Below, piece after piece: positions 55,290-59,635 of a stretch of 64,000 nucleotides of DNA (positions are counted from its first letter, which is position 1; the number at the start of each line of letters is the position of its first letter). The position numbers and the translations under genes are program-made. This DNA is from a virus (taxonomy: Duplodnaviria; Caudoviricetes), in the IMG/VR virus record IMGVR_UViG_3300047321_000298, positions 32,001 to 96,000 of that record; one strand, given 5' to 3'. The notes under the pieces are model-generated. The model was not told where the DNA came from, made no database searches, and was given only the letters and a program-made list of their open reading frames with translations.

Positions 55290-55937
55290 CTATAATTCAA
55301 TACTTTTTGAAGCGTACCGTCGTTTAGCCGCGAGTGACATATTAAGCCGCGCCTGTTCGCTGTGAACTCTTCCTCGGTTCCCCTTCCCGGTCATGCCGCG
55401 TCGTTGACCTTCCGACATGTTCATGCGGGACTGTTCAGTGTGGACACGCCCAAGGTTCAGCCTGCCTCCCATGCTAGGAGCCTTACGGCCCGCCGCCATG
55501 TTTCTCTTAGACTGTTCCGTGTGTTTATATCCACGTTCACGATGCTGCCAAGCCTCAGCCATTTTCCGTCGCGCTTCTGCGTCGTGCATATCGCCGCTGC
55601 GTCCCTCACCGCCGTCTGTCATATTCGCTAAACACCCGGTGCCGTTGTTGCGCCGACCGTAGAAAGCTATCGTGTTGATTTCACAGCCAAACGCCTGTTT
55701 CTCCGTTAGCTCCGTGGCCTCATACTCAATGTGAATTCGCTTACCTTCGCGAATCGCCTTGCGTATGATGTGGTTCTTGTAACTTGGTTTGGCTAACAAC
55801 TCAGGCTTCAAATGATTTCTAGCACGATTTGCCTTTCCTTTTCCGACGTAGAAGGGTAGCTCTTCATCATCCACTCTGAATTTATAAACGTAATATATTC
55901 GGTGTCTATCAAAGGGCTTCCCGTTCTTTCTCGGCAT
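55290..55937 (-). mobile_element. GIY-YIG homing endonuclease with NUMOD3 repeats
   Basis: YYVYKF...FYVGKG...R GIY-YIG; HTEQSKRNM / HTEQSRMNMS / HSEQARLNMS. Confidence 0.88.
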
Positions 55938-57843: not shown

Positions 57844-57879
57844 AAAAGCCCCGTCAAATCTCACTTTGACGGGGCTTTT
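57844..57879. terminator. Bidirectional intrinsic terminator
   Basis: AAAAGCCCCGTCAAA-TCTCAC-TTTGACGGGGCTTTT. Confidence 0.9.
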
Positions 57880-57883
57880 GTTT

Positions 57884-57961
57884 TGGCAGGGGGTACAGGA
57901 TTCGAACCTGTGCATGCTGGGATCAAAACCCAGTGCCTTAACCGGACTTGGCGAACCCCCA
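57884..57961 (-). tRNA. tRNA-Gln(TTG)
   Basis: Cloverleaf; CTGGG-TTTTGAT-CCCAG; encoded CCA. Confidence 0.92.
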
Positions 57962-57976
57962 ACTGAAACAAACTAC

Positions 57977-58107
57977 TGGTCGGAACAGCAGGAATCGAAC
58001 GCTGCGTCATCCTCTCCCTACCGGGCTTCAAGACACATGCGGTGTGCTGAGTGCATGCTGAATTGTGGGTCCCGGCGAGGATTACTCTACCTTTGAGCTA
58101 TGCTCCG
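57977..58107 (-). ncRNA. tRNA-Pro-like shell with anticodon arm expanded into a long nested helix
   Basis: Acceptor CGGAGCA/TGTTCCG + A-CCA; D arm GCTC-AAAGGTA-GAGT; bulged T arm; ATCCTC/GAGGAT, GCCGGG/CCCGGT, TTCA/TGAA, GCATGC/GCATGT. Confidence 0.72.
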
Positions 58108-58196
58108 AGTGGAACAGGGTGAGCGTGCGTGCGCTCAAGAAGTGGCGAGTTTCAGGCGGGCCTCTTTGTTGTGTTGCTCGCACGCTCAAAACTTAC

Positions 58197-58484
58197 TTAC
58201 GAAACGACGCCCATGATTTCAGCTTCTTGGAAAAGCGTCAGTTCTTCACCGTCAACCTCAACCGGGTAACCAGCGTTCGGATTGAAGTGAACGATGTCAC
58301 CGACCTTCACTGTCATAGGTACGACGCGGCCGTCAGCCACGAAATGACCGGCACCGACTGCAACGACTTCGCCCTGATCGGGACGCTGCTCGCGGTTGGA
58401 AGGGATCACGATGCCTGAGGCAGTCGTCTGCGGCTTAACAGTGACACGGACCAGCAAGCGATCATACAGCGGTTGAAACGGCAT
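58197..58484 (-). CDS. groES: Co-chaperonin GroES
   Basis: QPLYDRLLV, TTASGIVIP mobile loop, GEVVAVGAG, VKVGD. Confidence 0.93.
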   Translation of the reverse strand: MPFQPLYDRLLVRVTVKPQTTASGIVIPSNREQRPDQGEVVAVGAGHFVADGRVVPMTVKVGDIVHFNPNAGYPVEVDGEELTLFQEAEIMGVVS

Positions 58485-58920: not shown

Positions 58921-58938
58921 TTTACTGATTGAAACTCG

Positions 58939-59097
58939 AAGGTCGGGCAGGATTCGAACCTGCGGACGGTATGGGAAAGTCGGACCTTTGACACCGATAG
59001 CCTGATCAGGAGCAACCGCCTACGCGTTGATGCTCTGGTCAGACAGTCCCAACCCGTTCTTGTCTCGGTCACCATTAAGCCACTCTGGCACCGACCC
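58939..59097 (-). ncRNA. tRNA-like shell (U73, Cys/Gly-type end) with ~110-nt structured insertion replacing the anticodon arm
   Basis: Acceptor GGGTCGG/CCGACCT; D arm CCA-GAGTGGCTTAA-TGG; perfect T arm GCAGG-TTCGAAT-CCTGC; no CCA. Confidence 0.72.
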
Positions 59098-59473: not shown

Positions 59474-59513
59474 ATTACTAAATGTTCCAATTACTACGGC
59501 CCAAAGAGTTGGG

Positions 59514-59624
59514 CATCCCCGGGAGGACTCGAACCTCACAGCGCCCCGTAACTGCTGTCGCAGCGCGAGACACGTCGGACCGAAGTCCGCACGTACAGGC
59601 TACCAATTACCTGCATACAGGGGT
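59514..59624 (-). ncRNA. tRNA-like RNA with cUUCGg tetraloop in place of the anticodon loop
   Basis: D arm CAGG-TAATTGGTAG-CCTG; CGGAC-TTCG-GTCCG; CTGC-GACA-GCAG; T arm GAGG-TTCGAGT-CCTC; acceptor 6/7 paired. Confidence 0.72.
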
Positions 59625-59635
59625 ACTGATACAAT

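What the first reader, a model, noticed from the sequence alone, without database searches (positions are those of the whole stretch)
57977..58107. Pro-like tRNA shell (C1-G72, A73, CCA) with a ~60-nt insertion in the anticodon arm
Seen: a full acceptor with encoded CCA and a normal D arm. The anticodon stem ATCCTC/GAGGAT continues into GCCGGG/CCCGGT, TTCA/TGAA and GCATGC/GCATGT. The sequence CGG-GA (the Pro CGG anticodon plus positions 37-38) sits just inside the stem but is base-paired. Inference: it could still be charged or bound by ProRS/EF-Tu while unable to decode, or it is an intron-like insertion; it is too short for a group I intron.
Basis: partly seen in the sequence, partly recalled or inferred. 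Interest (0 to 1): 0.7.

Follow-up and report, generated by a model that had tools for sequence, protein, structure and literature searches.

The report
Non-decoding tRNA-shaped phage RNA
A 245-kb soil phage and its relatives carry a conserved 131-base gene that keeps the body of a proline tRNA but has a long folded arm where the codon-reading loop should be, so it is most likely a stable tRNA look-alike with an unknown job and not a broken or spliced tRNA.

Summary
On the minus strand (58107 to 57977) lies a tRNA cloverleaf. It has a Pro-type acceptor (C1-G72, A73, encoded CCA), a D arm and a T arm. A 62-nt stem-bulge-stem arm replaces the 7-nt anticodon loop. ARAGORN and Rfam do not call it.

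It is not unique. I found five further distinct copies in seven phage or metagenome contigs, 79-99% identical to it, always in a tRNA array with a phage GroES gene and tRNA-Gln. The fold is kept: 92.7% of cells pair against 40-51% in slid controls, and 7 pairs change on both sides. The arm is as conserved as the shell and as the neighbouring tRNA-Gln. A bulged base in the T stem is also conserved.

The splice product that ARAGORN called, tRNA-Pro(AGG), is not conserved. The only conserved one, loop GCCGGGA, would carry G32 and C33. No splicing endonuclease gene was found.

Best reading (0.6): a non-decoding, tRNA-scaffolded stable RNA matured by tRNA-processing enzymes, analogous to T5 RNA2 and T4 RNAC. 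Function unknown. This scan has already noted similar tRNA-shaped RNAs in this genome and in other phages.

The parts
57977..58107 (-). Whole tRNA-shaped RNA gene (E1), 131 nt, with encoded CCA at 57979-57977 and A73 at 57980
   Evidence: family model R1 scores it 136.5 bits; six distinct homologues
58101..58107 (-). Acceptor stem 5' strand; pairs with 57981-57987. Top three pairs C-G, G-C, G-C are invariant
   Evidence: helix 1 (92% of cells paired; pair 7-66 is A-U in five copies and G-C in one); A.A mismatches at 4-69 or 5-68 in three relatives
58084..58098 (-). D arm: 4-bp stem and 7-nt loop with the invariant GG
   Evidence: helix 2, 100% paired; pair 10-25 seen as G.U, G-C and A-U
58077..58082 (-). 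Anticodon-stem 5' strand; pairs with 58009-58014
   Evidence: In the hand-registered alignment 35 of 36 cells pair. The outermost pair is A-U, U-A or G-C in different copies
58071..58076 (-). Helix 2, 5' strand (GCCGGG, holds the CGG triplet); pairs with 58020-58025. Invariant in all copies together with the following A (58070)
   Evidence: helix 4, 100% paired, one C-to-U change giving G.U
58015..58019 (-). 3'-side bulge between helix 2 and the anticodon stem (AGGGA here; 4 nt and different in relatives)
   Evidence: AGGGA, AGGA, UGCA, UGGA
58029..58065 (-). Head: 3-bp middle helix (58065-58063 with 58031-58029), a sequence-conserved internal loop, a 6-bp apical stem (58058-58053 with 58040-58035) and a 12-nt apical loop (58052-58041)
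   Evidence: helices 5 and 6. The apical pair U-A becomes C-G in two copies; middle-helix pairs switch between A-U and G-C. Head identity to relatives is 75-84%
57988..58005 (-). T arm: 4 bp, a bulged C at 58001, the G53-C61 pair and the loop UUCGAUU
   Evidence: helix 7, 100% paired (G-C becomes U.G once). The bulge is present in all six copies, as C or U
58197..58484 (-). Phage GroES (Cpn10) gene immediately upstream in the same transcription direction
   Evidence: PF00166 on all homologues. E1 is adjacent to GroES in every complete locus
57884..57961 (-). tRNA-Gln(UUG), 15 nt downstream of E1; last gene before the terminator
   Evidence: tRNA-Gln follows E1 in all relatives
57844..57879 (-). 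Strong terminator-like hairpin that ends the minus-strand tRNA array

Best explanation
E1 is a functional, non-decoding tRNA-scaffold RNA.

Inferred route: it is transcribed with the GroES mRNA and tRNA-Gln as part of the phage tRNA array. Host RNase P and 3'-end enzymes cut it out, because it keeps an acceptor/T-arm minihelix, the D-loop/T-loop elbow and an encoded CCA. It then accumulates as a stable L-shaped RNA of about 131 nt.

The anticodon loop is replaced by a rigid arm of about 21 bp: 6 bp, then 6 bp with a 3' bulge, then 3 bp, then 6 bp. The arm carries a sequence-conserved internal loop and apical loop. This head is the working part, most likely a binding surface for a protein or RNA. 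The Pro-type tRNA body provides processing, stability and possibly access to tRNA-binding factors.

Shown here: the fold, its conservation, its covariation and its synteny. Inferred: the processing route, the stability and the ligand-binding role. The molecular target is unknown.
For: 1. Six distinct copies lie in seven phage or metagenome contigs. They were found through GroES neighbours and a DNA pattern.
2. The fold is conserved. 92.7% of cells pair against 40-51% when partners are slid. Seven pairs change on both sides, and 0 of 500 shuffles reach this. In the correct register the anticodon stem pairs in 35 of 36 cells, and its outer pair is seen as A-U, U-A and G-C.
3. The head is not junk. 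Its identity to relatives is 75-84%, against 80-87% for the shell. Whole-E1 identity (79-86%) is close to that of the adjacent tRNA-Gln (81-90%) and equals or exceeds GroES nucleotide identity (69-85%).
4. Elbow nucleotides (U8, A14, G18, G19, the T loop) and a peculiar T-stem bulge are kept in every copy.
5. There is no 7-nt anticodon loop. ARAGORN, with and without intron mode, and Rfam fail to call it.
6. The architecture matches annotated tRNA-like stable RNAs of T5 (RNA2) and T4 (RNAC) that sit in tRNA clusters. T4 RNAC is expressed and of unknown function (PMC9697503).
7. Engineered tRNA scaffolds with a hairpin in place of the anticodon arm are processed and stable in E. coli (PMC3753655).
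Against: - There is no expression data.
- No target was found. The complement of the apical loop is not enriched in the phage genome.
- The family is small and patchy. It is absent from relatives whose GroES is 65-76% identical.
- The 7-mer GCCGGGA, a Pro CGG anticodon with G37 and A38, is invariant next to the stem, and the Pro identity acceptor is invariant too. Those features could instead point to a decoding or charging role.
- Covariation rests on only six sequences.
Confidence: 0.6

Rival explanations
1. Intron-bearing tRNA-Pro. A protein endonuclease cuts out 55 nt, and the phage RtcB ligase joins the halves into a working tRNA-Pro(CGG).
For: - Removing 55 nt in silico makes ARAGORN call tRNA-Pro.
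- The 7-mer GCCGGGA next to the stem is invariant in all six copies and reads as CGG plus G37 and A38.
- The acceptor is Pro-type, and the family model best matches tRNA-Pro genes.
- The phage encodes RtcB.
- Lak megaphages were reported to have tRNAs with unexplained conserved introns (PMC6784885).
Against: - The product called at ARAGORN's default threshold with a 7-nt U33 loop (loop GUAGGGA, anticodon AGG) exists only in this copy. Relatives have AGGA, UGCA or UGGA there.
- The conserved product would have G32 and C33 instead of the near-universal U33 (general tRNA knowledge).
- Neither junction has a bulge-helix-bulge. No EndA-type endonuclease gene was found, and 55 nt is too short for a group I intron. 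Rfam finds no ribozyme.
- No intron-less allele was found in IMG/VR.
- The would-be intron is as conserved as the exons.
- The shell has a conserved T-stem bulge and A.A acceptor mismatches, which are unlike a translating tRNA.
- RtcB in the nearest named phages is read as tRNA repair (PMC7824862).
Confidence: 0.12
2. tRNA-Pro mimic acting as a decoy. The body is recognised by a host tRNA-binding factor, such as ProRS, a tRNA-modifying enzyme or a tRNA-cleaving defence nuclease. The arm blocks catalysis or decoding, so the factor is titrated. This is a special case of the best explanation.
For: - The complete Pro identity set (G72, A73, G35, G36) is invariant.
- The phage invests in tRNA repair (RtcB), which implies pressure from tRNA-targeting defences (PMC7824862).
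- Several other non-decoding tRNA look-alikes lie in the same array.
Against: - G35 and G36 are buried in a 6-bp G+C-rich helix in every copy.
- No anticodon loop is offered to an anticodon nuclease.
- No defence or ProRS link was found in the gene neighbourhood.
Confidence: 0.15
3. Decaying tRNA-Pro pseudogene. A hairpin-forming sequence landed in the anticodon loop and the gene is drifting.
For: - The two 7-mers flanking the central 48 nt (GCCGGGA and GUAGGGA) look like a target duplication in this copy.
- The T stem and acceptor stem are imperfect.
- The element is absent from some relatives.
Against: - The second 7-mer is not conserved, so the duplication is not a family feature.
- Copies from lineages whose GroES proteins are only 53% identical keep the whole structure, with compensatory changes.
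- The rate of change equals that of a functional tRNA next door.
- The odd T-stem bulge is itself conserved.
Confidence: 0.05

Closest known systems
Phage T5 RNA2 (rna2, T5s06; NC_005859 32959-33083), annotated 'tRNA-like stable RNA with unknown functions'
   Same: About 125 nt and inside a phage tRNA cluster. It has an acceptor-like terminal stem, a D-like hairpin, a canonical T arm and an enlarged middle arm in place of an anticodon stem-loop.
   Different: No sequence or model homology: R1 does not hit it. Its middle arm holds a second T-loop-like hairpin. No encoded CCA was checked and it has no Pro-type acceptor.
Phage T4 RNAC / species 1 RNA (NC_000866 70908-71046)
   Same: A small stable RNA at the end of a phage tRNA cluster, 139 nt, with a canonical T arm and paired ends. 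It is expressed and its function is still unknown (PMC9697503).
   Different: It has no D arm of tRNA type and has two long hairpins instead of one coaxial arm. R1 finds no homology.
Engineered 'tRNA scaffold' RNAs (Ponchon and Dardel approach, described in PMC3753655)
   Same: Identical design principle: acceptor, D and T arms are kept and the anticodon stem-loop is replaced by an inserted hairpin. These chimeras are processed and protected from degradation in E. coli.
   Different: Artificial constructs. They serve only as a functional analogy for processing and stability.
Lak megaphage tRNAs with 'enigmatic' conserved introns (PMC6784885)
   Same: Phage tRNA-like genes carry short, highly conserved inserts in the anticodon region that no known bacterial mechanism removes.
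   Different: There, intron-less alleles exist and a canonical tRNA is restored on excision. Here no intron-less allele was found and the restored loop is non-canonical.
YrlA-type bacterial and phage Y RNAs (Rfam RF02553)
   Same: Non-decoding tRNA mimicry in an RNA of about 100-130 nt.
   Different: The topology is the opposite. In YrlA the ends form the Ro-binding stem and the tRNA-like part is internal. E1 has a true acceptor end with CCA. There is no Rfam hit at E up to 10.

Membership tests
Canonical elongator tRNA (tRNA-Pro) | Detected by tRNA gene finders and the Rfam tRNA model | tested here: not met
   ARAGORN default and intron modes, and Rfam RF00005 at gathering score and at E up to 10, give no call
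Canonical elongator tRNA (tRNA-Pro) | 7-nt anticodon loop with U33 on a 5-bp stem | tested here: not met
   62 nt lie between the stem strands, folded into three further helices. The only conserved 7-mer has C33
Canonical elongator tRNA (tRNA-Pro) | Acceptor, D and T arms with elbow nucleotides; Pro identity C1-G72 and A73 | tested here: met
   The family model aligns end to end with real tRNAs, with tRNA-Pro(UGG) the best match in three phages. The T stem carries a conserved bulge
Group I intron-containing tRNA | Self-splicing ribozyme of roughly 200 nt or more in the anticodon loop | tested here: not met
   The insert is 55-62 nt and there is no Rfam intron or ribozyme match
Archaeal-type spliced pre-tRNA | Bulge-helix-bulge at the junctions and an EndA-family endonuclease | tested here: not met
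   The 5' junction lies in an uninterrupted helix. PF01974 is absent from the complete phage genome. The host genome could not be tested
tmRNA | tRNA-Ala-like domain without a D stem, plus a tag reading frame | tested here: not met
   ARAGORN tmRNA search is negative. The D stem is present and there is no G3-U70
YrlA / Y RNA (RF02553) | Match to the Rfam model; terminal Ro-binding stem | tested here: not met
   No hit at E up to 10. The ends form an acceptor stem with CCA
Phage tRNA-like stable RNAs (T5 RNA2, T4 RNAC) | Location in a phage tRNA cluster, tRNA-type T arm and paired ends, no anticodon loop | tested here: met
   This is a resemblance of kind only: no homology
Phage tRNA-like stable RNAs (T5 RNA2, T4 RNAC) | Accumulates as a stable processed RNA in infected cells | not testable with these tools

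The most novel reading that the evidence does not exclude
E1 is a caged tRNA-Pro(CGG). Its invariant Pro identity set (C1-G72, A73, CGG with G37 and A38) exists because the RNA is used as a proline tRNA body. Either it is freed by a so far unknown protein-dependent excision sealed by the phage RtcB, which would be the first non-group-I tRNA splicing in a bacterial system. Or it is prolylated while unable to decode, and it delivers or withholds Pro-tRNA for a non-ribosomal purpose.
Probability: 0.1. Interest if true: 0.9.

Novelty: new variant of a known kind. Interest (0 to 1): 0.55.

Why it matters
Phage tRNA clusters have been known since the 1970s to hold tRNA-like stable RNAs (T4 RNAC and RNAD, T5 RNA2), and their function is still unknown. 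E1 is a compact, well-defined new family of this kind, with a clear division into scaffold and head and enough divergent copies to design mutants.

This one phage lineage carries several unrelated tRNA-shaped, anticodon-less RNAs. That suggests phages repeatedly use the tRNA body as a natural expression and stability scaffold, the same trick later invented for recombinant RNA production. Finding what the conserved head binds could expose a new layer of phage-host conflict around tRNA metabolism or defence. The practical point for annotation is that such genes are missed by tRNA finders and by Rfam.

Tried and rejected
1. ARAGORN intron modes on the native sequence gave no call.
2. I removed every possible segment in silico. 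Three removals are called at default stringency, all as tRNA-Pro: two equivalent 55-nt cuts give anticodon AGG and a 53-nt cut gives GGG. The AGG loop is specific to this copy.
3. A shared 14-of-15-nt motif with another tRNA-shaped RNA of this genome (genome 124531-124683) suggested one family. I rejected this. The motif is not conserved in E1's relatives, R1 scores that RNA only 11.7 bits, and the pattern scan hit an unrelated class-II tRNA-like gene.
4. Blastn of E1 against 50,697 phage records gave only chance-level hits. The one to tRNA-Pro 3' ends had E = 5.
5. BcepSauron, the nearest named phage, has no E1 in the syntenic gap.
6. An apical-loop pattern in the metagenome and viral collections gave no hits.
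7. The genome contigs pattern scan gave four chance matches, none confirmed by R1.
8. A search for an intron-less allele in viral contigs found one unrelated tRNA.
9. An antisense target for the apical loop is not enriched in the phage genome.
10. Pfam searches of the phage genome for a ProRS-type core, a CCA-adding enzyme and EndA were all negative.
12. Linkage to DUF7873 holds in three lineages but not in L031.

Full report
**Context.** The window is bases 32001-96000 of a complete 245,517-bp IMG/VR phage genome with direct terminal repeats. Its Dda-like helicase is about 49% identical to those of Burkholderia jumbo phages BcepSauron and BcepSaruman, the nearest named relatives. Positions 57.9-63.2 kb hold a minus-strand array of ten ordinary tRNA genes. 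The array is interspersed with small ORFs, a phage GroES gene (58197-58484) and a GIY-YIG/NUMOD3 endonuclease gene. It ends at a strong terminator-like hairpin at 57844-57879. The finding lies between GroES and the last gene, tRNA-Gln(UUG).

**The observation.** Read on the minus strand from 58107 to 57977, the 131 nt form the following:
- a 7-bp acceptor stem whose top pairs are C1-G72, G2-C71 and G3-C70, followed by A73 and an encoded CCA;
- U8 and A9;
- a 4-bp D stem with a 7-nt loop containing GG;
- a 6-bp anticodon stem that continues, with no break on the 5' strand, into a 6-bp G+C-rich helix (helix 2). Helix 2 buries the triplet CGG;
- a 5-nt bulge on the 3' strand between these two helices;
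- beyond an internal loop, a short middle helix, a second internal loop, a 6-bp apical stem and a 12-nt loop;
- a 3-nt variable region;
- a T arm with the loop UUCGAUU. Its stem is 4 bp, then one bulged C (58001), then the G53-C61 pair.

ARAGORN (default, intron modes, tmRNA) and Rfam (gathering score, and E up to 10) do not call the element. Energy alone is unremarkable: z = -1.3 for the whole RNA and -1.5 for the arm. The cloverleaf-plus-arm fold lies only 0.2 kcal/mol above the MFE.

**Relatives.** Direct pattern and protein scans of IMG/VR found one near-identical contig. It differs by a 1-nt insertion in the apical loop. I then searched for relatives of the adjacent GroES protein and fetched their contigs.
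- Two Logan contigs whose GroES is 85-87% identical carry full-length copies that are 85% identical to the window copy.
- A metagenome scan with a pattern spanning the D arm, anticodon stem and helix 2 gave three more contigs. Two have identical element sequences and one is cut at its 5' end.
- In one of these lineages GroES is only 53% identical to the window's protein, and the order is E1, GroES, tRNA-Gln instead of GroES, E1, tRNA-Gln.

That makes six distinct sequences in seven contigs, always in a tRNA array with GroES and tRNA-Gln. Relatives with 65-76% GroES identity lack E1 and carry other structured RNAs at the corresponding place. The family is therefore patchy. No further copy turned up in GTDB genomes.

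**Structure conservation.** I built a covariance model (R1) from the six sequences and the proposed structure.
- It scores members at 125-145 bits.
- It aligns end to end with ordinary tRNAs at 13-40 bits, with the head deleted.
- The best-matching ordinary tRNA is tRNA-Pro(UGG) in this phage (38.8 bits), T5 (32.2) and T4 (29.0).

On the model-based alignment:
- 92.7% of cells form standard pairs, against 40-51% when the 3' partners are slid by 1-3 columns.
- Seven pairs change on both sides, and 0 of 500 shuffles reach this.

That alignment misplaces the window copy by one column in the anticodon stem. In the correct register 35 of 36 cells pair, and the outermost pair occurs as A-U, U-A and G-C. 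Other informative changes:
- acceptor pair 7-66 goes from A-U to G-C;
- D-stem pair 10-25 is seen as G.U, G-C and A-U;
- T-stem pair 49-65 goes from G-C to U.G;
- an apical-stem pair goes from U-A to C-G in two copies;
- the middle-helix pairs switch between A-U and G-C.

Six sequences give limited power, and related sequences can beat shuffles without structure. The slid controls, and the spread of double changes over five of the seven helices, make a real structure the sensible reading.

**What is conserved.** These features are invariant:
- the top of the acceptor stem, A73 and CCA;
- the elbow nucleotides;
- the inner five pairs of the anticodon stem;
- both strands of helix 2, apart from one C-to-U change that gives G.U;
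- the A that follows helix 2;
- most of the internal loop around the apical stem;
- the presence of the T-stem bulge, as C or U.

These features vary: the 3' bulge (AGGGA, AGGA, UGCA, UGGA), the junction strands and position 26. Three lineages have an A.A mismatch in the middle of the acceptor stem.

Identity to the window copy is 80-87% for the shell and 75-84% for the head. Whole-element identity (79-86%) is about that of the adjacent tRNA-Gln (81-90%) and is at or above that of the GroES coding sequence (69-85%). The head is thus under purifying selection as strong as the tRNA-like body.

**Is it an intron?** I removed every possible segment in silico. At default stringency ARAGORN calls three removals, all as tRNA-Pro. 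Two equivalent 55-nt cuts give anticodon AGG on a 7-nt loop with U33, and a 53-nt cut gives GGG on a non-canonical 7-bp stem. The AGG loop depends on the 3' bulge, which differs in every other lineage, so that product is not conserved. The one product that all six copies could yield has the loop GCCGGGA. That is CGG with G37 and A38, but with G32 and C33, which from general tRNA knowledge is highly atypical.

Further points against splicing:
- The 5' junction lies within a continuous helix, so there is no bulge-helix-bulge.
- The complete phage genome has no EndA-family gene.
- The insert is far too short for a group I intron, and Rfam finds no ribozyme.
- No intron-less allele was found in IMG/VR.

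The phage does encode RtcB. RtcB, Rnl1 and Rnl2 in the BcepSauron group are interpreted as tRNA repair enzymes (PMC7824862). The conserved T-stem bulge and the acceptor mismatches also sit badly with a translating tRNA. I give splicing 0.12. It is kept alive mainly by the striking invariance of the complete Pro identity set.

**Is it a pseudogene?** No. Structure with compensatory change is retained across lineages whose GroES proteins are only 53% identical, at the rate of a functional tRNA. That excludes neutral decay (0.05).

**Best explanation.** E1 is a non-decoding tRNA-scaffold RNA. Its position inside the tRNA operon, 15 nt upstream of tRNA-Gln, with an intact acceptor/T minihelix, elbow and encoded CCA, implies release by the tRNA-processing machinery and tRNA-like stability. 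This is an inference. It is supported by the behaviour of engineered tRNA scaffolds that have exactly this design (PMC3753655). The conserved arm then presents its internal loop and apical loop some 21 bp away from the elbow. What it binds is unknown. The complement of the apical loop is not enriched in the phage genome, and no protein gene is consistently linked apart from GroES. A decoy role for a tRNA-Pro-binding factor or a tRNA-directed defence is a reasonable special case (0.15).

**Comparison with known RNAs.** The closest described objects are T5 RNA2, annotated as a tRNA-like stable RNA with unknown functions, and T4 RNAC.
- Both lie in phage tRNA clusters.
- Both keep a canonical T arm and paired ends.
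- Both have enlarged middle arms.
- T4 RNAC is expressed and is still of unknown function (PMC9697503).
- R1 detects neither, so E1 is a new family of that kind and not a homologue.

Lak megaphage tRNAs with 'enigmatic introns' (PMC6784885) are a looser parallel. YrlA Y RNAs have the opposite topology and give no Rfam match.

**Earlier notes of this scan.** Earlier notes record several other tRNA-shaped, anticodon-less RNAs in this genome and in other phages. I confirmed that three of them exist here. I also confirmed that the one outside the window is not the same family as E1.

**Limits.** The host is unknown. Only six sequences are available. Processing, stability and ligand binding are inferred and not shown.

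Noticed in passing
window 58938-59097 (minus): A second tRNA-shaped gene of about 160 nt. It has a class-II-type D arm, a perfect T arm and a large structured insert. ARAGORN calls it only in intron mode, as 'tRNA-Asp(atc) i(32,66)'.
   Followed up: partly
window 59510-59626 (minus): A third tRNA-shaped RNA of 117 nt between tRNA-Tyr and tRNA-Ser. It has a T arm and two hairpins (one capped UUCG) where the anticodon arm should be.
   Followed up: partly
genome 124531-124683 (plus), outside the window; L037:1501-1653: A 153-nt tRNA-shaped RNA with a Leu-type D arm and CCA. It shares a 14-of-15-nt motif with E1, but the motif is not conserved in E1's relatives, and R1 scores the RNA only 11.7 bits.
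   Followed up: yes
L009:3043-3200; L019:991-1161; L021:1457-1625; L012:3390-3545: A conserved structured element of about 165 nt, closed by a long-range stem (CGAUGGUCAGG with CCUGACCAUCG), lies just before tRNA-Gln in relatives. L009 has both this element and E1. The window has only E1.
   Followed up: no
L024:331-455; L012:2246-2370; L020:1841-1968; L021:431-558: Relatives that lack E1 carry a different 125-128-nt tRNA-shaped RNA upstream of tRNA-Asn. Its anticodon arm holds a second T-arm-like hairpin and a tetraloop hairpin.
   Followed up: partly
genome 143003-144133 (plus); L034: A full-length RtcB RNA ligase gene (407.6 bits against PF01139), probably for tRNA repair.
   Followed up: partly
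window 55290-55937 (minus): A GIY-YIG/NUMOD3 homing-endonuclease-like gene just beyond the end of the tRNA array, reminiscent of segB in the T4 tRNA cluster.
   Followed up: no
window 58108-58196 (minus): The GroES-to-E1 spacer contains a long-range hairpin (GAGCGUGCG with CGCACGCUC). It is kept in the near-identical relative. It may be a processing or stability element for the GroES mRNA 3' end.
   Followed up: no
L007:640-745 (minus), IMGVR_UViG_3300006914_000018: A class-II-shaped tRNA-like gene with a GUC anticodon loop and a long variable arm. ARAGORN does not call it. It turned up as a chance pattern hit.
   Followed up: no
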